Source: Acidimicrobiia bacterium (GTDB taxonomy: Bacteria > Actinomycetota > Acidimicrobiia > Acidimicrobiales > Ilumatobacteraceae). Taken from it: a stretch of DNA of 25,637 bases. Positions 12,544 through 25,477 of this stretch are shown in pieces. The notes beneath the pieces were generated by a model. That model saw only the letters and a program-made list of their open reading frames with translations, was not told the DNA's origin and did not search any database. The stretch covers positions 1 through 25,637 of the forward strand of contig JACDGA010000001.1 of the NCBI GenBank assembly GCA_013815505.1, read 5' to 3'. Within the stretch, counting starts at the first letter, position 1, and each line of letters begins with the position of its first letter. The position numbers and the translations under genes were made by a program.

Positions 12544-13383
12544 ATGCTCGTTTGGATGGACCTCGAGATGACGGGGCTCGACCACCAGCAGGACGTCATC
12601 GTCGAGATCGCCACGCTTGTCACCGACGACGACCTGAACATCGTGGCCGAGGGGCCCGACCTCGTCATCTACCAGCCCGACGAGGTCCTCGACAAGATGG
12701 ATCCGTTCGTGGCCGGCATGCACACGCGCTCCGGCCTGCTCGAGGCCATTCGCACGTCCCACGTGACGCTGCAGGACGCCGGGGCGGCGACGTACGAGTT
12801 CATCCGGTCGTACGCGCCGGTGCCGCGCACCGTGCCGCTGTGCGGCAACTCGATCGGCACCGATCGCCGTTTCCTCGCGGCCTATCTCCCCGAGATCGAG
12901 CAGCACCTGCACTACCGGTCCGTCGACGTGTCGAGCGTCAAGGAGCTCGTCAAGCGCTGGTACCGGCCGGTGTGGGACGAGCGGCCACGCAAGGAGGGGA
13001 CGCACCGGGCGCTCGACGACATCCGCGACAGCGTCGACGAGCTGCGCTTCTACCGGCGCCACGCCTTCGTGCCGCCCGTGACCGGCGTCCGGCACGTCGT
13101 GCTGTTCCGGTGGGTCGACGACGCCACGCCCGAGCAGATCGCGACGGTGAAGAGCGCGCTCGCCTCGTTGCCGTTGCTGATCCCCGAGATCAGCGGCTAC
13201 CGCGTCGGCGCCGACCTCGGCCTCGCCGGCGACAACGCGCAGTTCGCCGTCGTTGGCGACTTCGCCGACGAGGAGGCGTGGACGACCTACCGTGACCACC
13301 CAGAACACCAGAAGATCATCGCCGAGCTGATCCGTCCCCTCGTCGCGCAGCGCTGGGCAGTGCAGTTCCGCAGCGGCTCGTGA
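12544..13383 (+). CDS. orn: Oligoribonuclease fused in frame to a C-terminal Dabb (stress-responsive alpha/beta barrel) domain
   Basis: LVWMDLEMTGLD, LCGNSIGTDRRFL, HYRSVDVSSVKEL, HRALDDIRDS; then RHVVLFRW...YRDHPEHQ typical of Dabb. Confidence 0.9.
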   Translation: MLVWMDLEMTGLDHQQDVIVEIATLVTDDDLNIVAEGPDLVIYQPDEVLDKMDPFVAGMHTRSGLLEAIRTSHVTLQDAGAATYEFIRSYAPVPRTVPLCGNSIGTDRRFLAAYLPEIEQHLHYRSVDVSSVKELVKRWYRPVWDERPRKEGTHRALDDIRDSVDELRFYRRHAFVPPVTGVRHVVLFRWVDDATPEQIATVKSALASLPLLIPEISGYRVGADLGLAGDNAQFAVVGDFADEEAWTTYRDHPEHQKIIAELIRPLVAQRWAVQFRSGS

Positions 13384-17556: not shown

Positions 17557-18771
17557 TCAGCCGGGCGCTGTGAGCGCGGAGCCGGCGCGACCGAGGGCGA
17601 TCTCGACGGACTCGAGCATCCGTGCCGAGCACCCGGCCATCGCCGCGTCGTCGAGCACTGCCCGTGGTGGGGCGACGTCCTCGGCGAGCGTCTTCGCCAG
17701 CGTGCGGAACGCCGCACCTGCGGCGGACTCGTGGTCGAGCGCGATCGGCCGTCCCGCGTCGCCGCCGGCGACGATGGCTGGCTCCATCGGGATCTGCGCC
17801 AGCAGCGGGGCGCCGATCGTGTCGGCGAGTGCCTGGCCTCCGCCGCGACCGAACAGCTCGTACGACTCACCGTGGTCGCACGTGAAGGCGGTCATGTTCT
17901 CGACGACGCCGAGCACGGGGAGGAAGCTGCGCCGCGCCATGTCGGCGGCGCGCTGGGCGACCTTCTGCGCCGCGAGCGCCGGCGTCGTGACGACAAGCAT
18001 CTCGGTGCGGGGGAGCAGGCGGGCGAGGCCCATCTGCACGTCGCCGGTGCCCGGCGGCATGTCGATCAGGAGGTAGTCGAGGTCGCCCCACTGCACGTCG
18101 GTGAGGAACTGCTCGACCGCCTTGGTGAGCATCAGTCCACGCCACATGAGCGCGGTCTCCTCGTCGATCATGAAGCCCGTCGAGACGACCTCCAGCACAC
18201 CGTCGCCGACGTGGCGTTTGTTGGGGAGGATCTTCGCCCTGTCGGATCCCTCCGACTTCTCGGCACGCAGGTTGTCGCCGATGCCGAGCAGTCGCGGCAC
18301 CGAGAAGCCCCAGATGTCGGCATCCAGCACGCCGACCCGGAAGCCCTGCGCAGCGAGTGCGGTGGCGAGGTTGACCGTCACGGACGACTTGCCGACGCCG
18401 CCCTTGCCGCTGGCGATGGCGAGAATCCTCGTGCGCGCCGGCACCTCGGTGTCTGGCGCTTGCTGGCGGGCGTTCCACCGTGCCTTCGTCATCACCTCGC
18501 TGCGTTCGTCGGCTGTCATCTCACCCCACGTGATCGACACGTTCCTCACGCCGGGATGGACACCGACGCGTTGTTCGACCTCGCGCTTGATGTCGGCACG
18601 CAGCGGGCACCCGCCGATCGTCAGCTTCACGGTGACCTCGACGTCGCCGTCGTCGCTCACGACCACCTTGGGGACCATGCCGAGCGACACGATGTCGGAG
18701 CCGAGTTCCGGGTCGATGACGCCACCGAGCACGCCCATCACCTCGTCGTGGGAGGGAGCAGGCATCGACAT
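17557..18771 (-). CDS. mrp: Mrp/NBP35 (ApbC) Fe-S carrier ATPase with an N-terminal DUF59/MIP18-like domain
   Basis: VIDPELGSDIVSLGMV, GGCPLR, ASGKGGVGKS, LDADIWGFSVP, WRGLML, DMPPGTGD, GVVENM. Start ATG 18771 lies 7 nt after TAAAAT. Confidence 0.92.
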   Translation of the reverse strand: MSMPAPSHDEVMGVLGGVIDPELGSDIVSLGMVPKVVVSDDGDVEVTVKLTIGGCPLRADIKREVEQRVGVHPGVRNVSITWGEMTADERSEVMTKARWNARQQAPDTEVPARTRILAIASGKGGVGKSSVTVNLATALAAQGFRVGVLDADIWGFSVPRLLGIGDNLRAEKSEGSDRAKILPNKRHVGDGVLEVVSTGFMIDEETALMWRGLMLTKAVEQFLTDVQWGDLDYLLIDMPPGTGDVQMGLARLLPRTEMLVVTTPALAAQKVAQRAADMARRSFLPVLGVVENMTAFTCDHGESYELFGRGGGQALADTIGAPLLAQIPMEPAIVAGGDAGRPIALDHESAAGAAFRTLAKTLAEDVAPPRAVLDDAAMAGCSARMLESVEIALGRAGSALTAPG

Positions 18772-18830
18772 GGCACTCATTTTACCGGCACCCGCCGTGT
18801 TATGTCGTGGAACGGGCTAGCCTGGGCGAT

Positions 18831-19517
18831 GTGGTTGTGACTTCGGCGACATCCGCGGCCCCTGGGGCGCTCGACGTGTTGAAAGCGCTGGCCGACAACA
18901 CTCGGTACGCGATCTACCGGCACCTCGGCGAGTGCCGCCGGCCCGTCACCACGGCCGAGATCGCCGACCATCTCCAGCTCCACCCCAACACCGTACGTCC
19001 GCACCTCGAGCGGATGCGCGACGTGGGGCTCGTCGAGGTCGACATCGACAGTCGCGGCGAGGTCGGCAGGCCTCAGCACCACTATCGGCTCGCCACGTCG
19101 CCGCCGCCGCTCGGGTTCGACCCGCCGGGCGTCACCGAGCTCGCCGACATAGTGCTGGCGATGGCGACACGTCTCGGCGCCTCGCCACTCGACGCGTTCG
19201 CCGCCGGTGTCGACCGCGGCGCGGCACGAGCCGACCGCTACCGCACCGCACCGTCGGCGCTCGAAGCCCTTGTCGACGATCTCGGCACGCTCGGGTTCGA
19301 ACCGGCGGTGGCCGAGGCTGCCGATCACGAGACGGCGGTCGTGTCGTTCGGGGTGTGCCCGTTCGGCGATCACGTGGACGAACACCCCGAGCTGATCTGC
19401 TCGCTCCACCGGGGGATCGTCACGGGACTCGTCGACGAGATGGGCGACGCAAGGGTCGTCGAGTTCTGCGACCGCGGACATCGCACGCCATGTCGCGTTG
19501 CGGTCGGCGAGCGCTAA
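18831..19517 (+). CDS. Winged-HTH transcriptional regulator with Cys-rich C-domain (SufR-like)
   Basis: LKALADNTRYAIY, LHPNTVRPHLERM, GRPQHHY; C-terminal VCPF, LICSLHRG, EFC...PC. Start GTG 18831 lies 7 nt after TAGCCT. Confidence 0.8.
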   Translation: MVVTSATSAAPGALDVLKALADNTRYAIYRHLGECRRPVTTAEIADHLQLHPNTVRPHLERMRDVGLVEVDIDSRGEVGRPQHHYRLATSPPPLGFDPPGVTELADIVLAMATRLGASPLDAFAAGVDRGAARADRYRTAPSALEALVDDLGTLGFEPAVAEAADHETAVVSFGVCPFGDHVDEHPELICSLHRGIVTGLVDEMGDARVVEFCDRGHRTPCRVAVGER

Positions 19518-19550: not shown

Positions 19551-19880
19551 GTGATCACGCTCACTGACAACGCAGCGGGCAAGGTGCGACAGCTGCTCGC
19601 CGCCGAGGGGTCCGATGACCTCGCGCTCCGTGTCGCCGTACGGCCGGGAGGCTGCAGTGGCTTCTCGTACGAGATGTTCTTCGATTCCGACGTCGGCTCC
19701 GACGACGAACAAGCCACGTTCGGCGACGACTCGACGGTCAAGGTAATTGTGGACGCCGCATCGTCACAGCTGCTGGAGGGTGCCACCCTCGACTACAGCG
19801 AGACACTCGAGCAGTCGGGGTTCCAGATCACGAACCCCAACGCGTCGCGCACCTGCGGCTGCGGCCAGAGCTTCTCCTGA
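19551..19880 (+). CDS. erpA: A-type Fe-S carrier protein (ErpA/IscA/HesB family)
   Basis: LRVAVRPGGCSGFSY, NPNASRTCGCGQSF; SD AGGAG 8 nt before the GTG. Confidence 0.93.
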   Translation: MITLTDNAAGKVRQLLAAEGSDDLALRVAVRPGGCSGFSYEMFFDSDVGSDDEQATFGDDSTVKVIVDAASSQLLEGATLDYSETLEQSGFQITNPNASRTCGCGQSFS

Positions 19881-21466
19881 CCCCGACTCGGGTCTCGTTC
19901 GTCCTCAACGACAACGACGTCTCGGTCGACGCGCTCGGCGCGTCATCACTGCTCGATGCCCTGCGTGAGTCGCTCGGCATCCACTCGGCCAAGGACGGAT
20001 GCAGCCCCCAGGGCCAGTGTGGCTGCTGCACGGTGCTCGTCGACGGCTCGCCCCGTGTCGCCTGTGTGACCCCGCTCGCTCGCGTGGCGGGGCGTCGCGT
20101 CACGACGTTCGAAGGCCTCGACGACGCCGACGGTTGGGCCGATGTGATGTCCGCGACCGGCGCCAGCCAGTGCGGTTTCTGCACCCCGGGCATCATCGTC
20201 CGGGCGGCGTCGCTCGCGCTCGAGCGGCGTCGGGATGCCGCCGCCGTCGATCGGATGTTGCTCGCCCATCTCTGCCGCTGTACCGGCTGGCAGCCGATCA
20301 GGGAGGCCATCGTCGCCGGACCATGGACATCGAACGGCGGACACGCCGGCGTCGGGCGTGACGACGACGCGGCGAGCGTCCGCGCCGAGATGGAAGGCGG
20401 CGTCGGGCAGCACGTGTCGGTCGCGGTGGCGACCGGCGCCGGTGGGTTCTCCGACGATCTCGCGCCCGACGACGCACTCGTGGCACTGCTCGCCGCGGAC
20501 GGGGAGTGGGTGGTCGGTGACTCGCTCGACGACGCCCGGCAACGCTCGGGCAAGGTGCAGGGGCGCAGGTCGACTACCGCGCTGTCGTGGCCGGTCGACG
20601 TGCCTGCCGGATCGTGGGTCCGCACGCTGGAGACCACGTGGGTGGAGCCCGGCTACCTCGAGCCCGACGCGTCGTGGTGCGCGCCGGGTGGTGAGCCGTC
20701 GCCTGCACTCGGCAACGGTGGGGCGTTCGGCGCCAAGGTGGCGAGCGAGGTGACGAGCGTCGCGCGACGTCTCGCCGACGAGCACGGGCGACCGGTGCGA
20801 GCGCTGTACACCCGCGAGGACGTCGTGCGCCGCGGCCCGAAGCGGCCACCACTCGCCATCGCCGTCGATGCCGACGGAGGTGGTGTGCTGCGCATCGCCC
20901 ACTCGGGCGACGAAGACCCCGCTCGTTCCGTCGACGTGGCACGACAGGGCCTGGAGCTCGCAGGCTTCACCTTGGCCTCGTGGCACGTCGAGGTCGTCGA
21001 CGTGGCCGGGCCGCCGACGTCCGTCGCGCTGCGCGCCTCAATCGTCGGTGAGCTGCTCGCCGTCGCAGCATCACTCGACACGGCGCCCGACGTCGTCGCG
21101 CTCACCAGTGGCGCCCGAGCCGTGGCGGAGTTCGACGGCGACGAGCTGGTGATCCACGTGCATGCCGGCGACCCGCTCGACGCCACCGTGTTGCGCAGCT
21201 ACTGCACCGGCGCTGCGCACGCCGCGCTGGGAATGGTGCGATCGGAGGCGGTCGCCCTCGATGACATCGGGCGGCCGGTGGACCTGACGATCCGCTCGTT
21301 CGGCATCCTCCGCGCCCAGGACACGCCGGCGATCCGCATCGAGATCGCCGACGCCGACCGGGGCGGCGAGCCGCTCGCCGTCAGTGATGCCGTGTTCGCC
21401 GCAGCGCTCGCCGCCGCCTGGCGGTCGACCAGCTTCGCACCGCGCTGGCCGGCCCACCGTCGCTGA
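19877..21466 (+). CDS. 2x[2Fe-2S] domain fused to a shortened molybdopterin-binding (xanthine dehydrogenase family) domain; start probably non-canonical
   Basis: KDGCSPQGQCGCC, SQCGFCTPG, HLCRCTG; then YLEPD, NGGAFGAK, PVRALYTREDV, LTIRSFGILRA. The frame is open from inside erpA, but there is no ATG/GTG/TTG before 20033. CTG 19877 overlaps the erpA stop. Confidence 0.75.
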   Translation: MTPTRVSFVLNDNDVSVDALGASSLLDALRESLGIHSAKDGCSPQGQCGCCTVLVDGSPRVACVTPLARVAGRRVTTFEGLDDADGWADVMSATGASQCGFCTPGIIVRAASLALERRRDAAAVDRMLLAHLCRCTGWQPIREAIVAGPWTSNGGHAGVGRDDDAASVRAEMEGGVGQHVSVAVATGAGGFSDDLAPDDALVALLAADGEWVVGDSLDDARQRSGKVQGRRSTTALSWPVDVPAGSWVRTLETTWVEPGYLEPDASWCAPGGEPSPALGNGGAFGAKVASEVTSVARRLADEHGRPVRALYTREDVVRRGPKRPPLAIAVDADGGGVLRIAHSGDEDPARSVDVARQGLELAGFTLASWHVEVVDVAGPPTSVALRASIVGELLAVAASLDTAPDVVALTSGARAVAEFDGDELVIHVHAGDPLDATVLRSYCTGAAHAALGMVRSEAVALDDIGRPVDLTIRSFGILRAQDTPAIRIEIADADRGGEPLAVSDAVFAAALAAAWRSTSFAPRWPAHRR

Positions 21467-21524: not shown

Positions 21525-21875
21525 ATGAACAAGCCGCTCGGTCCATATTCGCCGTTCGTCCTCGCCGGTGACTTCGTGTTCGTGTCCGGTCAGGTCGGGA
21601 TGCTCGCCGGAGAGCTCGTCGACGGCGGGATCACGGCACAGACGAACCAGGTCATCGCCAACCTCTCGCAGCGGCTCACCGAGGCAGGGCTCTCGCTCGG
21701 CGATGTGGTCAAGACGACGTGCTTTCTCACCGACATGGGCGACTTCGAGGCCTTCAACGAGGCGTACGTCAACGGGTTCGGCGATCATCGACCGGCGCGA
21801 TCGACGTTTGCCGTCGCCGGCCTCCCTGCCGGCGCCATCGTCGAGATCGAGGCCGTCGCCCACCGTTCGTCCTGA
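21525..21875 (+). CDS. ridA: RidA/YjgF family enamine-imine deaminase
   Basis: LGPYSP, FVSGQVG, VVKTTCFL, FNEAY, RPARSTFAVAGLP, VEIEAVA. Confidence 0.92.
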   Translation: MNKPLGPYSPFVLAGDFVFVSGQVGMLAGELVDGGITAQTNQVIANLSQRLTEAGLSLGDVVKTTCFLTDMGDFEAFNEAYVNGFGDHRPARSTFAVAGLPAGAIVEIEAVAHRSS

Positions 21876-21879
21876 TCTC

Positions 21880-22452
21880 GTGCCCGACGTGGAGGTGCAG
21901 CGCTGCGACTGGGCAACGGGCTCGAACGATCGCAACGTCGCCTACCACGACACGGAATGGGGTACACCGCAGCGTGACGCCGGCGTGCTCTTCGAGTTCC
22001 TTGTGCTGGAAGGCGCGCAGGCGGGGCTGTCGTGGACGACGATCCTCGACAAGCGCGAGGGATACCGGGCGGCGTTCGCTGGGTTCGACCCGGTGCAGGT
22101 CGCCGCCTTCGACGATGACGACGTCGCCCGCTGCCTCGCCGATCCCGGCATCGTGCGCAACCGGGCGAAGGTGGCATCGGCCATCTCGAACGCCCGCGCC
22201 TGGCTCGAGCTCGACGATCCAGCGGCGTTCCTGTGGGGCTTCGTCGACGGCGTGCCGGTTGACCGACGCGCCGTCCACGCGAGCGACCTTCCTGCCGAGA
22301 CGGAGATCTCGAAGACGATGAGCAAGGAGCTCAAGCGGCGAGGGTTCCGGTTCGTCGGGCCAACCATCTGCTACGCCTACATGCAGGCGTGCGGTCTCGT
22401 GAACGACCACCTCGTCTCGTGCTTCCGCCACGACCAGGTCACCTCGCGCTGA
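21880..22452 (+). CDS. tag: DNA-3-methyladenine glycosylase I
   Basis: RCDWA, YHDTEWG, LEGAQAGLSWTTILDKR, IVRNRAK, FRFVGPT, GLVNDHLVSC. Confidence 0.96.
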   Translation: MPDVEVQRCDWATGSNDRNVAYHDTEWGTPQRDAGVLFEFLVLEGAQAGLSWTTILDKREGYRAAFAGFDPVQVAAFDDDDVARCLADPGIVRNRAKVASAISNARAWLELDDPAAFLWGFVDGVPVDRRAVHASDLPAETEISKTMSKELKRRGFRFVGPTICYAYMQACGLVNDHLVSCFRHDQVTSR

Positions 22453-22522
22453 CGCGCTCGACGTACCCCACCGGGCCGAGGTCGCACTCGGACCGGACGG
22501 GCCCGCTCGCTACAGTGGCGAC

Positions 22523-22678
22523 ATGGCCGGTGCCGTCCTCATCGTCGTGGCGTTGCTGCTGTTCCCCGTGCTGTTCCTGATGAGCGGCGCACTCGCCGCA
22601 GGGATCTTCGGCGAGTCGCTCGCTCGCGACGGCGCCAAGCGCTACGAGGGCAGCGAGCTCCTCGAGCTCGACGACTGA
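22523..22678 (+). CDS. 51-aa small membrane protein (absent from the ORF track)
   Basis: MAGAVLIVVALLLFPVLFLMSGALAAGIFGESLARDGAKRYEGSELLELDD. GC-rich third positions; ATG 6 nt after TACAGT; fills the intergenic gap. Confidence 0.75.
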   Translation: MAGAVLIVVALLLFPVLFLMSGALAAGIFGESLARDGAKRYEGSELLELDD

Positions 22679-22700
22679 CCGTCTGACGCGAGGCTGTTCG

Positions 22701-24086
22701 TTGCACCGTCACGACGAGGACGCAGAAGGGCTGACCCGCGCCGTCGTCCGCTATGCGATCGACCGGGTGCGGATGCAGTCGCCGCCGCTCGACGGCCCGG
22801 TCTCGCCCGCCGAGCTGCGCCGGCGCGCCGGGGAGACCATCACCGACGACGGCATCGGCGGCGACGAGGCGCTGCGCATCTTCAGCGACGTACTGGCACC
22901 GGCGTGCATCTCGATCGACCACCCTCGCTTCTTGTCGTTCGTGCCGGCGGCACCCACCGAGGCAGCCGTCCTGTTCGACCTCGTGGTCGGGGCGTCCAGC
23001 ATCTACGGGGGGTCGTGGCTCGAAGGCGGTGGGGCGATCTACGCCGAGAACGAAACGCTGGCCTGGATCGCCCGACTTGCCGGCATGCCGAAGTCGACCG
23101 GCGGGGTCTTCGTCAGCGGCGGCACCGCCGGCAATCTCAGCGCGCTGCTCGCCGCGCGACACCAGTGGCGACGCCTCGCCGACGGCAGGCTCGATCGCGC
23201 GCGCGGTTTGATCGTCGCCTCGAAGGGAGCGCACTCGTCGGTCGCGCAGGCGGCGCGGGCGATGGACGCCGACGTGGCACTGTGTGACGCCGACGAACGG
23301 GGCCGCCTCAGCGGCGACGCCGTGCGAGCGCTCGTCGACGGACTCGACGAGGACGACCTCGAGCGGCTGTTCGCCATCGTCGCCACGGCCGGCACGACCA
23401 ATGCCGGCGTCGTCGACGACCTCGCCGGCGCCGCTGATGTCGCCGCCGAGAACGGTGTCTGGTTCCACGTCGACGGCGCGTACGGCGCGGCGGCGCTTGC
23501 CGCGCCGAGCGTGCGTGAGCACTTTGTTGGGATCGAGCGCTCCGACAGCCTGATCCTCGACCCGCACAAATGGCTGTTCGCCCCGTTCGACGCCTGCGCG
23601 CTGCTCTACCGCGATCCCGAGGCCGGACGCGCCGCCCACACGCAGCAGGCGGAGTACCTCGACGTGCTGCATCCTGTCGCCGAACCGGGCCAGGAGCCGG
23701 GTCCGTGGAACGCGTCCGACTTCGCCCATCACCTCACGAGGCGTGCACGTGGGCTGCCGCTGTGGTTCAGCCTGGCGACGCACGGCACGCGTGCGTACGA
23801 GGAGGCGGTGGAGACGACGTTGCGCGTGGTCCGCGAAGGCGCCGACGTGATCCGCGGGGCCGATCACCTCGAGCTCATCATGGAGCCGGAGCTGTCGATC
23901 CTGCTGTTCCGGCGAACGGGCTGGGACGCCGAGCAGTACCAGCAGTGGAGCGATCGCATGCTGGCCGAGCAGATCGCGTTCGTGACGCCGACGAAGTGGG
24001 GAGACGAGACTGTGCTGCGGTTGTGCGTCGTCAATCCGTTGACGACCGTCGACGACATCGAGCTGCTCGTCGAGATGCTGGCGTGA
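22701..24086 (+). CDS. Group II PLP-dependent amino acid decarboxylase
   Basis: HPRFLSFVP, FVSGGTAGNL, TAGTTNAG.VDD, WFHVDGAYG, LDPHKWLF (PLP Lys). TTG start after GAGG. Confidence 0.92.
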   Translation: MHRHDEDAEGLTRAVVRYAIDRVRMQSPPLDGPVSPAELRRRAGETITDDGIGGDEALRIFSDVLAPACISIDHPRFLSFVPAAPTEAAVLFDLVVGASSIYGGSWLEGGGAIYAENETLAWIARLAGMPKSTGGVFVSGGTAGNLSALLAARHQWRRLADGRLDRARGLIVASKGAHSSVAQAARAMDADVALCDADERGRLSGDAVRALVDGLDEDDLERLFAIVATAGTTNAGVVDDLAGAADVAAENGVWFHVDGAYGAAALAAPSVREHFVGIERSDSLILDPHKWLFAPFDACALLYRDPEAGRAAHTQQAEYLDVLHPVAEPGQEPGPWNASDFAHHLTRRARGLPLWFSLATHGTRAYEEAVETTLRVVREGADVIRGADHLELIMEPELSILLFRRTGWDAEQYQQWSDRMLAEQIAFVTPTKWGDETVLRLCVVNPLTTVDDIELLVEMLA

Positions 24087-25477
24087 CTGCGACGGCGGCG
24101 ACGCCGGTCGGCGCCGCCGGCGCGGTCGATCTCGTCATCGACGGTGCGACGTCGGTCGTCGTGTTCGACGACGTGCGCACGGAGCTCGACGGCGGGTGGG
24201 TGGCGATCGACGGCGGACTCGTCGCCGCCACCGGGACCGGCGCGGCGCCGCCGGCGCGAACGACGCTCGACGCCTCCGACTGCCTCGTCACCCCGGGGCT
24301 CGTCAACACGCATCATCACCTGTTCCAGAACCTGACACGGGCGCATCCCGTGATGACCGGCAAGCCGTTGTTCGGCTGGTTGCAGTCGCTGTACCCGCTG
24401 TGGCGCGGCCTCGACGAGGAGGCGGCGTACGTGTCTGCGTGGGTCGGGCTCGCCGAGTTGGCGCTCTCGGGCTGCACGACGTCGAGCGATCACCTCTACC
24501 TCCACCCGCGCGGCGGAGGCGATCTGCTCGGCGCCGAGATCGCCGCCGCGCTCGATCTCGGCGTCCGGTTCCATCCCTCGAGGGGAGCGATGTCGCTGTC
24601 GCACAAGGACGGCGGGCTGCCGCCCGACGATGTCGTGGCGCCCGACGACGAGATCCTCGACGCCTTCGAGCGGGCCGTGCACGATCACCACGATCCGGCG
24701 TACGGCGCGATGACCCGCATCGCGCTCGCGCCGTGTTCGCCGTTCACGGTGACGGAGTCGCTGATGGTGGCGGCGGTGGAGCTGGCGGAACGGCTCGACG
24801 TGCGGCTGCACACGCACTTCGCCGAGAACGCCGAGGACGACGAGTTCTCGCTGGCGACGTTCGGCTGCCGTCCGACGGAGTACTTCGAACGCACGGGATG
24901 GCTGACGGAGCGGGCGTGGCTGGCGCACTGCGTCACGCCGGACGCCGACGAGGTGCGGCGGCTCGGCGCGGCGCGTGTCGGGGTCGCGCACTGCCCGTCG
25001 AGCAACATGATTCTCGCTTCAGGGGTGGCTCCGGTCGTCGACCTGCTGGCAGCGGGCGCACACGTCGGCCTCGGTGTCGACGGCTCGTCGTCGTCCGACG
25101 CGGCGTCGCTGTGGATGGAGGCGCGCCAGGCGATGTTGGTCGGCACGCTGCGCAGTGGCGCCGGTGCGATGACGGCCCGAACGGCGCTCGAGATCGCCAC
25201 GATCGGTGGTGCGGCGTGTCTCGGGCGCACGGGCGAGCTCGGCACGCTCGCCGTGGGAGCCGTCGCCGACGTCGCCGTGTGGCCGCTCACCGGCCCGGCG
25301 TTCGCCGGCCCACTCGCTGATCCGGTGGAGGCGCTGTTGCGGTGCGGTCCGGTCCGGGCTCGCCACACGGTGGTCGCCGGCCGTCCCGTCGTCCTCGACG
25401 GCGAACTCGTCTCACCCGACGTGGAGGCGATGCTCACCCGCCACCGCGCGGCCTCTCTCCGCCTGTGTCAGCGATAA
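24083..25477 (+). CDS. Amidohydrolase of the 8-oxoguanine deaminase/AtzB group
   Basis: PGLVNTHHHLFQNLTR, SDHLYL, ALAPCSPF, LHTHFAE, AHCPSSN, GLGVDGS. GTG overlaps the upstream TGA. Confidence 0.88.
   Translation: MTATAATPVGAAGAVDLVIDGATSVVVFDDVRTELDGGWVAIDGGLVAATGTGAAPPARTTLDASDCLVTPGLVNTHHHLFQNLTRAHPVMTGKPLFGWLQSLYPLWRGLDEEAAYVSAWVGLAELALSGCTTSSDHLYLHPRGGGDLLGAEIAAALDLGVRFHPSRGAMSLSHKDGGLPPDDVVAPDDEILDAFERAVHDHHDPAYGAMTRIALAPCSPFTVTESLMVAAVELAERLDVRLHTHFAENAEDDEFSLATFGCRPTEYFERTGWLTERAWLAHCVTPDADEVRRLGAARVGVAHCPSSNMILASGVAPVVDLLAAGAHVGLGVDGSSSSDAASLWMEARQAMLVGTLRSGAGAMTARTALEIATIGGAACLGRTGELGTLAVGAVADVAVWPLTGPAFAGPLADPVEALLRCGPVRARHTVVAGRPVVLDGELVSPDVEAMLTRHRAASLRLCQR

What the first reader, a model, noticed from the sequence alone, without database searches (positions are those of the whole stretch)
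19877..21466. Miniature single-chain xanthine-dehydrogenase-family protein
About 529 aa in total. Both [2Fe-2S] domains are intact, but the Mo-binding part is only about 360 aa versus roughly 750-800 aa for a typical large subunit. Only short remnants remain (F.DD, YLEPD, GGAFGAK, TREDV, GAAHAALG, TIRSFGILRA), and no FAD subunit or XdhC gene is adjacent. The catalytic Glu region reads GGEPLAVSDAV, so it is unclear whether the Glu is kept. Inference: a minimal molybdoenzyme or a cofactor-free Fe-S protein tied to Fe-S/Moco maturation, given its coupling to erpA. It would be a second degenerate redox enzyme in this window.
Basis: partly seen in the sequence, partly recalled or inferred. Interest (0 to 1): 0.62.

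Follow-up and report, generated by a model that had tools for sequence, protein, structure and literature searches.

The report
Half-sized xanthine-dehydrogenase-like iron-sulfur protein
This gene encodes a conserved, uncharacterised Acidimicrobiia protein that keeps the two iron-sulfur clusters of a molybdenum hydroxylase but has lost about half of the molybdenum domain, so it probably no longer works as a hydroxylase.

Summary
Window 19877-21466 (+) encodes a 529-aa protein with both [2Fe-2S] domains intact and only about 365 aa of XDH-like sequence.

It is not a deletion remnant. The same short form occurs in 68 of 201 sampled Acidimicrobiia genomes and in none of about 370 other Actinomycetota. 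dN/dS is 0.25.

The AlphaFold model (pLDDT 91) superposes on rat XOR, human AOX and D. gigas MOP at Z 22-24. Full-length MOP-like paralogs sit in the same genomes. Aligned to them, the short form lacks at least 321 aa in nine blocks.

Of six MOP cofactor-contact segments, two are kept (GGxFG and Arg533). Two are deleted (HGQG and GGSRQ), Gln807 is replaced by an invariant Tyr, and the loop carrying catalytic Glu869 is deleted. The window's own Glu is not conserved in the family.

Best reading: a Moco-less, two-cluster electron-transfer protein or pseudo-hydroxylase. A residual cofactor site is not excluded.

The erpA link is weak. The mrp-erpA...RidA...glnA backbone persists in relatives that lack this gene.

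The ORF has no canonical start; a CTG overlaps the erpA stop codon.

The scan has noted this family in eight other genomes. I found no characterised member.

The parts
19877..21466 (+). Whole ORF of the short XDH-family protein (529 aa plus stop)
   Evidence: Translation. Homologues of 505-530 aa at 57-62% identity. dN/dS 0.245 against G002.
19877..19880 (+). CTGA junction: putative CTG start (19877-19879) overlapping the erpA stop TGA (19878-19880)
   Evidence: No ATG, GTG or TTG in frame before 20033. Sequence read. The junction is identical in G002. The first 52 codons have dN/dS 0.16 and encode the conserved start of Fe-S domain I.
19889..20104 (+). [2Fe-2S] domain I, plant-ferredoxin type, residues about 5-76. 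Ligands C42, C48, C51, C63, with an extra C50.
   Evidence: Pfam Fer2, Fer2_3 and Fer2_4 hits. NCBIfam small-subunit models cover residues 5-146. Cysteines conserved. Aligned to MOP residues 6-107 through the paralog.
20105..20317 (+). [2Fe-2S] domain II, Fer2_2 four-helix type, residues 77-147. Ligands C99, C102, C133, C135.
   Evidence: PF01799 5.8e-16. The four cysteines are invariant in A1.
20372..21463 (+). Pruned Mo-domain remnant, residues about 166-529
   Evidence: 339-344 residues align over the full length of Mo subunits of about 700-790 residues at Z 15-18. 30% identity over 355 columns to the full-length paralog.
20711..20737 (+). GNGGAFGAK, residues 279-287: retained counterpart of MOP G418-G422 and of the GGAFGGK motif in human AOX1
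   Evidence: HMMER alignments to 1dgj and human AOX1. Invariant or nearly invariant in the family.
21032..21034 (+). R386, counterpart of MOP Arg533 in the AFRGYG motif
   Evidence: Invariant in A1.
21113..21157 (+). Residues 413-427: one beta-hairpin between two deletion junctions. 67 aa are missing after residue 412 and 123 aa after residue 426. The missing stretch holds the paralog's EMGQG and TGSRGT motifs, which correspond to MOP H653-G656 and S695-Q700.
21200..21202 (+). Y442, an invariant Tyr at the position of MOP Gln807
21362..21370 (+). G496-G497-E498, at the site of the 13-aa deletion that removes the paralog's KGVGE loop (MOP S865-E869). E498 is not conserved in the family.
19551..19880 (+). 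erpA: A-type Fe-S carrier, upstream, stop overlapped by the short ORF
   Evidence: PF01521 1e-17. TIGR00049 119.8 bits against a cut-off of 58.8. The ErpA equivalog scores 116.5 against a cut-off of 117.
21525..21875 (+). RidA (Rid family), 58 nt downstream. It is the immediate downstream neighbour in 12 of 16 loci.
   Evidence: PF01042 1.3e-33. TIGR00004 115 bits against a cut-off of 106. Synteny.

Best explanation
The gene encodes a class-specific (Acidimicrobiia) descendant of a single-chain aldehyde oxidoreductase of the D. gigas MOP type, which carries Fe-S and Mo domains but no FAD domain. After duplication it kept the two [2Fe-2S] domains and the part of the Mo domain that packs against them. 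It lost at least 321 residues in nine blocks. The lost parts include most of the hammerhead subdomain, the first subdomain of Mo2 with two cofactor-binding loops, and the loop with the catalytic glutamate. It most likely no longer binds the molybdenum cofactor in the canonical way and cannot hydroxylate substrates. It would then act as a two-cluster [2Fe-2S] electron-transfer protein, with cluster I exposed where the cofactor used to sit. It needs no canonical large subunit or FAD subunit. In this genome it appears to be translated from a CTG that overlaps the erpA stop codon, and it appears to be co-transcribed with erpA and RidA. Shown here: the anatomy, the fold, the deletion map, conservation, purifying selection and the distribution. 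Inferred only: loss of Moco, the electron-transfer role, and the partners, which are unknown.
For: Fold: the AF2 model has pLDDT 91 and pTM 0.92. It aligns to rat XOR, human AOX and MOP at Z 22-24 over about 488 of 529 residues at rmsd 3.1 A. The C-terminal domain spans whole Mo subunits at Z 15-18.

Origin: full-length paralogs in the same genomes share the unusual KDGCSP(S/Q)GQCGCC motif and NGGAFGGK. One paralog matches MOP 1sij at E 2.4e-85 over residues 6-893 and scores 802.6 bits on TIGR03311, cut-off 830.

Deletion map. MOP 418-422 and R533 are kept. The segments around MOP 650-656 and 695-700 lie inside a deletion of about 190 aa. Q807 becomes the invariant Y442. The 865-869 loop is deleted. 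E498 varies across the family.

Selection: 60% mean column identity in 50 homologues, with many invariant residues in the remnant. dN/dS is 0.245 overall and 0.27 in the remnant.

Autonomy: G027 (97% complete) and G030 (95% complete) have the short form and MoeA, but no match to PF02738, PF20256 or PF00941.

Operon: no terminator-like site on the + strand between 18700 and 22800.
Against: GGAFGxK and R386, which contact the cofactor in canonical enzymes, are invariant. They might have been expected to drift if nothing binds there. Moco biosynthesis is present in nearly all carriers: MoaC in 66 of 68, and MoeA in the other two. Cofactor availability therefore cannot separate the options. I could not inspect the model's coordinates for a cavity. 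The list of MOP cofactor-contact residues comes from my memory of the published MOP structures. Only its mapping onto these sequences rests on tool alignments. No partner or substrate is identified.
Confidence: 0.58

Rival explanations
1. It is a truly minimal molybdo- or pterin-dependent enzyme. The retained half-pocket (GGAFGxK, R386, and Q98/C135 of the Fe-S domains) still binds a pyranopterin cofactor. The pocket would be completed by family-specific residues, by dimerisation or by a partner protein. The chemistry would differ from classical Glu-assisted hydroxylation.
For: The two retained cofactor-contact elements are invariant across the family. The relative position of the Fe-S domains and the remnant is preserved. 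Family-specific invariant residues, many of them basic or aromatic, lie in the remnant: R169, R230, R231, W255, Y260, Y442 and R473. Moco biosynthesis is present in carriers. An 8-oxoguanine deaminase and other base-metabolism genes lie downstream.
Against: Four of six cofactor-contact segments are deleted or replaced, including both loops that hold the dithiolene and phosphate side, and the catalytic Glu loop. No stand-alone MoCoBD_2 protein that could supply them in trans was found in G027 or G030. The downstream genes remain in genomes that lack this gene.
Confidence: 0.22
2. It is a component or redox partner of Fe-S cluster trafficking, functionally tied to ErpA, Mrp/ApbC and the SufR-like regulator. 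For example, it could donate electrons for cluster assembly or transfer, or it could sense cluster status.
For: In this genus the ORF is translationally coupled to erpA. The order mrp, HTH, erpA, short XDH recurs across the order. In the class sample the HTH regulator and the short form co-occur more often than not: both 45, short form only 23, HTH only 12, neither 121.
Against: mrp and erpA stay adjacent in five genomes without the gene. In 11 of 16 loci an opposite-strand gene for an exported protein separates erpA from it. The co-occurrence is far from strict and is confounded by phylogeny: 47 of the 'neither' genomes belong to one family with genomes of about 1.1 Mb.
Confidence: 0.15
3. 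It is a decaying remnant of a full-length gene, that is a pseudogene, or an artefact of MAG assembly.
For: There is no canonical start codon in this genus. Some relatives have split copies or copies with an in-frame stop: G015, G018 and G167. The distribution within the family is patchy, 6 of 21.
Against: The same architecture and length occur in 68 of 201 class genomes, including closed genomes. dN/dS is 0.25, and 0.16 in the codons before the first canonical start. The fold is predicted with high confidence. The junction is identical in an independent genome.
Confidence: 0.04

Closest known systems
Desulfovibrio gigas aldehyde oxidoreductase MOP (PDB 1sij/1vlb) and D. desulfuricans AOR (1dgj)
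   Same: Both are single chains with two N-terminal [2Fe-2S] domains followed by the Mo domain, and neither has an FAD domain. The fold superposes at Z 22 over about 490 residues. The GGxFGxK motif and the Arg533 equivalent are retained.
   Different: 529 aa against 907 aa. About 321 or more residues are missing in nine blocks. The missing parts include the HGQG and GGSRQ cofactor loops and the Glu869 loop. Gln807 is replaced by Tyr.
TIGR03311 'selenium-dependent xanthine dehydrogenase'-like single-chain paralogs in the same genomes (for example own genome C107, and G007 L028)
   Same: They are the closest full-length relatives: 48% identity in the Fe-S module and 30% in the aligned remnant. 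They share the KDGCSPxGQCGCC variant of the cluster-I motif.
   Different: The paralogs are 850-880 aa and carry all cofactor motifs and the KGVGE glutamate. The short form scores 122 bits on this model against a cut-off of 830, and only through its N-terminal 140 residues.
Eubacterium barkeri nicotinate dehydrogenase (3hrd), with its Mo subunit split into 425-aa and 330-aa chains
   Same: It is a precedent for a Mo domain that is not one 750-aa chain. 3hrd_A is the best PDB sequence hit of the remnant (E 0.006).
   Different: There the two chains together hold the complete Mo domain. Here the middle is deleted while both ends are kept. No separate MoCoBD_2 gene was found in G027 or G030.
CoxS/XdhC/PaoA-type [2Fe-2S] small subunits
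   Same: Residues 5-147 match these models at 1e-20 to 1e-30. TM-scores normalised to the small subunit are about 0.8.
   Different: Small subunits are proteins of about 160 aa that need a separate large subunit. This protein carries its own reduced scaffold and occurs in genomes where no large subunit was found.

Membership tests
Xanthine oxidase / MOP family molybdenum hydroxylases | Two [2Fe-2S] domains with eight conserved Cys ligands | tested here: met
   C42, C48, C51, C63 and C99, C102, C133, C135 are present and conserved. PF01799 scores 58.8 bits against a cut-off of 30.3.
Xanthine oxidase / MOP family molybdenum hydroxylases | Overall fold, with the Mo domain packed on the Fe-S domains | tested here: met
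   VIA-align Z 22-24, about 488 residues aligned, rmsd 3.1 A against 3an1_B, 4uhx and 1sij. Foldseek E 4e-17 to 1dgj and 1sij.
Xanthine oxidase / MOP family molybdenum hydroxylases | Complete Mo-cofactor-binding domains: PF01315 hammerhead, PF02738 MoCoBD_1 and PF20256 MoCoBD_2, each above the gathering score | tested here: not met
   PF02738 scores 20.2 bits (cut-off 27) and covers profile positions 94-144 of 244. PF20256 scores 12.6 bits and covers 222-283 of 283. PF01315 gives no hit.
Xanthine oxidase / MOP family molybdenum hydroxylases | Six cofactor-contact segments (MOP 418-422, R533, 650-656, 695-700, 799-807, 865-869; list recalled from the published MOP structures) | tested here: not met
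   Two are kept: GNGGAFGAK at 279-287, and R386. Two lie inside deletions of 67 and 123 aa. Q807 is replaced by Y442. The 865-869 loop is deleted.
Xanthine oxidase / MOP family molybdenum hydroxylases | Catalytic glutamate (MOP Glu869, bovine XO Glu1261) | tested here: not met
   The paralog's KGVGE loop is removed by a 13-aa deletion. The window's E498 is replaced by K, A, D or P in family members, and no acidic residue is conserved nearby.
Xanthine oxidase / MOP family molybdenum hydroxylases | Bound Mo-pyranopterin cofactor and hydroxylase activity | not testable with these tools
   This needs metal analysis, spectroscopy and assays on purified protein.
TIGR03311 selenium-dependent xanthine dehydrogenase (NCBIfam equivalog) | Whole-protein score above the curated cut-off of 830 bits | tested here: not met
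   121.7 bits, covering residues 7-146 only. The full-length paralog scores 802.6 bits.

The most novel reading that the evidence does not exclude
The family is a functional minimal enzyme. A half-sized Mo domain would still hold a pyranopterin or another cofactor next to [2Fe-2S] cluster I, in a pocket rebuilt from family-specific invariant residues or completed by oligomerisation. It would catalyse chemistry other than classical Glu-assisted hydroxylation. That would make it the smallest working member of the xanthine oxidase superfamily.
Probability: 0.2. Interest if true: 0.8.

Novelty: new variant of a known kind. Interest (0 to 1): 0.55.

Why it matters
Xanthine-oxidase-family enzymes are treated as invariably built on a Mo domain of about 750 aa. 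This is a conserved natural experiment in which evolution removed about 45% of that domain but kept both iron-sulfur clusters under purifying selection. The carriers are a class that includes Ilumatobacteraceae. If the protein is cofactor-free, it would, as far as I could find, be the first clear pseudo-enzyme of this superfamily turned into an electron carrier. It would also define the minimal scaffold needed to hold the two clusters. If it still binds a cofactor, it would define the minimal molybdenum hydroxylase. In either case the current database labels are misleading for hundreds of sequences ('xanthine dehydrogenase small subunit', 'CoxS/CutS family', '2Fe-2S cluster-binding protein').

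Tried and rejected
I obtained neighbourhoods through the genome search and the fetch from genomes instead.

2. Testing Moco dependence by co-occurrence with Moco biosynthesis was uninformative. MoaC is present in 149 of 201 class genomes and in 66 of 68 carriers. The two exceptions still have MoeA and full-length XDH genes.

3. The gene c7, which lies between erpA and the short gene in 11 of 16 relatives, was considered as a trans-acting supplier of the missing Mo2 part. I rejected this. It has a Tat/lipoprotein signal, a C-terminal region with a conserved CxxxxC motif (thioredoxin-like only by eye and by scan note e1-2254118), and no Pfam or NCBIfam hit. It is on the opposite strand and absent from this window.

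4. A programmed -1 frameshift that would fuse ErpA to this protein was considered and rejected by eye. There is no X XXY YYZ slippery heptamer at CTTCTCCTGA.

5. A profile of the C-terminal remnant against PDB sequences gave only marginal local hits, E 0.006-0.3. The residue map had to be made through the full-length paralogs.

6. My first GC3-based gene caller mis-called the HTH/erpA region. I replaced it with a codon-usage log-odds caller.

7. Three literature searches found no paper on a truncated XO-family protein of this kind. The library is incomplete, so this does not prove that none exists.

8. The protein atlas returned only unnamed Actinomycetota clusters of the same family.

Full report
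**Observation**

The frame at 19877-21466 (+) translates to 529 residues and a stop. The ORF listing reports only a 477-aa ORF from GTG 20033, because no ATG, GTG or TTG lies further upstream in this frame. That shorter ORF would cut off the first cluster motif. The 52 upstream codons encode the conserved start of Fe-S domain I. The only plausible start is therefore the CTG at 19877, which forms a CTGA overlap with the erpA stop codon. The close relative G002 has the identical junction. Against G002, the 52 upstream codons show 8 synonymous and 4 non-synonymous changes, giving dN/dS 0.16. G002 is flagged as unpublished. The junction comparison, the dN/dS values and the L002 synteny row rest on it.

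**Domain content**

Pfam finds Fer2_2 at residues 77-145 (5.8e-16) and weak Fer2-type hits at 10-76. Beyond that it finds only sub-threshold fragments of MoCoBD_1 (profile 94-144 of 244) and MoCoBD_2 (profile 222-283 of 283), and no hammerhead domain. NCBIfam models of XDH-family small subunits and single-chain enzymes match residues 5-147 only.

**Not a deletion remnant, and class-restricted**

The word-index search returned hundreds of proteins of 505-530 aa at 57-62% identity. Sources name them 'xanthine dehydrogenase small subunit', 'CoxS/CutS family' or '2Fe-2S cluster-binding protein'. They come from Ilumatobacter and Ilumatobacteraceae.

- An exhaustive search with the C-terminal 378 aa found 380 clusters at E <= 1e-10.
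- Whole-genome searches found the short form in 68 of 201 sampled Acidimicrobiia genomes. Several families are at or near 100%. Two families have none: 0 of 47 in one with genomes of about 1.1 Mb, and 0 of 20 in another.
- In a phylum sample it was found in 13 of 401 genomes, all inside the class.
- Fifty homologues show 60% mean column identity, with many invariant residues in the C-terminal part.
- dN/dS against G002 is 0.245 overall and 0.27 in the C-terminal part.
- A few relatives carry split copies or copies with an in-frame stop. The gene is therefore dispensable in some lineages.

**Fold**

AlphaFold2 on the 50-sequence alignment gave pLDDT 91 and pTM 0.92. Foldseek ranks the two single-chain Desulfovibrio aldehyde oxidoreductases first, at E about 5e-17. 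VIA-align gives Z 22-24, about 488 aligned residues and rmsd 3.1 A against rat XOR, human AOX and MOP. Residues 160-529 align to 339-344 residues spread over entire Mo subunits, for example residues 2-702 of 4zoh_A and 2-764 of 1jro_B, at Z 15-18. The Mo domain is therefore pruned internally, not truncated at one end.

**Origin and deletion map**

The same genomes carry single-chain paralogs in open frames of 865-894 aa, such as own-genome contig C107 and L028-L034. These paralogs share the unusual KDGCSP(S/Q)GQCGCC cluster-I motif and NGGAFGGK. One of them matches D. gigas MOP at E 2.4e-85 over residues 6-893. It scores 802.6 bits on TIGR03311, whose cut-off is 830.

A MAFFT alignment of short forms with paralogs shows at least 321 residues missing, in nine blocks of 8 aa or more. 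Identity is 48% in the Fe-S module and 30% over 355 aligned columns of the remnant. I combined this alignment with the MOP numbering. The list of MOP cofactor-contact residues is recalled from the published structures. The mapping gives:

| MOP segment | State in the short form |
|---|---|
| G418-G422 | Retained as GNGGAFGAK, residues 279-287 |
| Arg533 | Retained as the invariant R386 |
| W650-G656 (HGQG) | Inside adjoining deletions of 67 and 123 aa |
| S695-Q700 (GGSRQ) | Inside the same deletions |
| C799-Q807 | Replaced; Gln807 is the invariant Y442 |
| S865-E869 (catalytic Glu) | Removed by a 13-aa deletion |

The Glu in the window's GGEPLAV is K, A, D or P in other family members.

**Autonomy**

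G027 (97% complete) and G030 (95% complete, two contigs) have the short form and MoeA. No match to MoCoBD_1, MoCoBD_2 or the FAD subunit family was found in either. The protein therefore does not depend on a canonical large subunit or FAD subunit. Moco biosynthesis is almost universal in the class and cannot discriminate between the readings.

**Context**

In 16 loci from the order the arrangement is conserved:

- mrp/apbC on the opposite strand
- an ArsR/SufR-like HTH gene
- erpA
- a gene I call c7, on the opposite strand, encoding an exported protein
- the short XDH gene
- RidA, often with a 4-nt overlap or a gap under 110 nt
- Tag, a PLP decarboxylase and an 8-oxoguanine deaminase
- a GlnR-like regulator and glnA

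The window lacks c7, which is how the short gene comes to abut erpA. Five genomes without the short gene keep the mrp-erpA and GlnR-glnA ends of this backbone, four keep RidA, and the three from the same family also keep c7. Adjacency to erpA and RidA is therefore mostly conserved chromosome order. It is weak evidence for a shared function.

The HTH gene co-occurs with the short form only loosely: both in 45 genomes, short form only in 23, HTH only in 12, neither in 121. This count is confounded by phylogeny. No terminator-like site lies on the + strand between 18700 and 22800, which is consistent with co-transcription in this genome.

**Interpretation**

The most likely reading (about 0.6) is a Moco-less derivative that works as a two-cluster [2Fe-2S] electron-transfer protein or pseudo-hydroxylase. 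The invariant GGAFGxK motif and R386 keep alive a second reading (about 0.2), in which a residual or rebuilt cofactor site is still used. A dedicated role in Fe-S trafficking is possible but poorly supported. Pseudogene and assembly-artefact readings are effectively excluded.

**Comparison with what is known**

I found no characterised member. Eight unverified first-reader notes from this scan describe the same family in other genomes. I rate it a new variant of a known kind, of moderate interest.

Noticed in passing
window 19877-19880: The short XDH ORF has no ATG, GTG or TTG start. A CTG overlaps the erpA stop codon as CTGA. The junction is identical in a second genome of the genus (G002, unpublished). 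Gene callers at ENA and NCBI truncated the close homologues to 477 aa (P0003, P0004). This suggests termination-reinitiation at a non-canonical start.
   Followed up: partly
window 18837-19517 (+) and 17557-18780 (-): An ArsR/SufR-like HTH regulator lies divergent from mrp/apbC. Its N-terminal HTH domain gives a weak SufR_cyano hit. It is absent from all five examined loci that lack the short XDH gene. Class-wide co-occurrence is only loose: both 45, short form only 23, HTH only 12, neither 121.
   Followed up: partly
window 21525-25477 (+): A same-strand run follows the short gene: RidA (21525-21875), Tag 3-methyladenine glycosylase (21880-22452), a PLP-dependent decarboxylase (22701-24086, diaminobutyrate-decarboxylase-like but below cut-off) and 8-oxoguanine deaminase (24083-25477, 588 bits against a cut-off of 532). 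This may be a module for damaged-base or amine metabolism. It is conserved whether or not the short XDH gene is present.
   Followed up: partly
L013:6748-7614 (-) and equivalents in 11 of 16 related loci: An uncharacterised protein of about 290 aa with a twin-arginine/lipoprotein signal (SRRTFL...AACG) and a conserved C-terminal PAYCQTxxCGP motif. It has no Pfam or NCBIfam hit. It sits between erpA and the short XDH gene in most relatives and is absent from this window.
   Followed up: partly
own genome G000 contigs C107, C80, C302, C395: The same MAG carries a full-length single-chain paralog that lies at the left edge of contig C107. It is like the relatives' paralogs, one of which scores near the TIGR03311 cut-off. 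Three further canonical XDH-family loci are present, two of them with FAD subunits.
   Followed up: partly
window 12544-13383 (+): A single ORF combines an RNase_T-type exonuclease domain with a C-terminal Dabb (stress-responsive A/B barrel) domain.
   Followed up: no
G015 (L005/L024), G018:C9:6159-6818, G167:C64:6471-7500: Copies of the short form are split into two pieces or carry an in-frame TGA. This suggests ongoing loss in some lineages.
   Followed up: no
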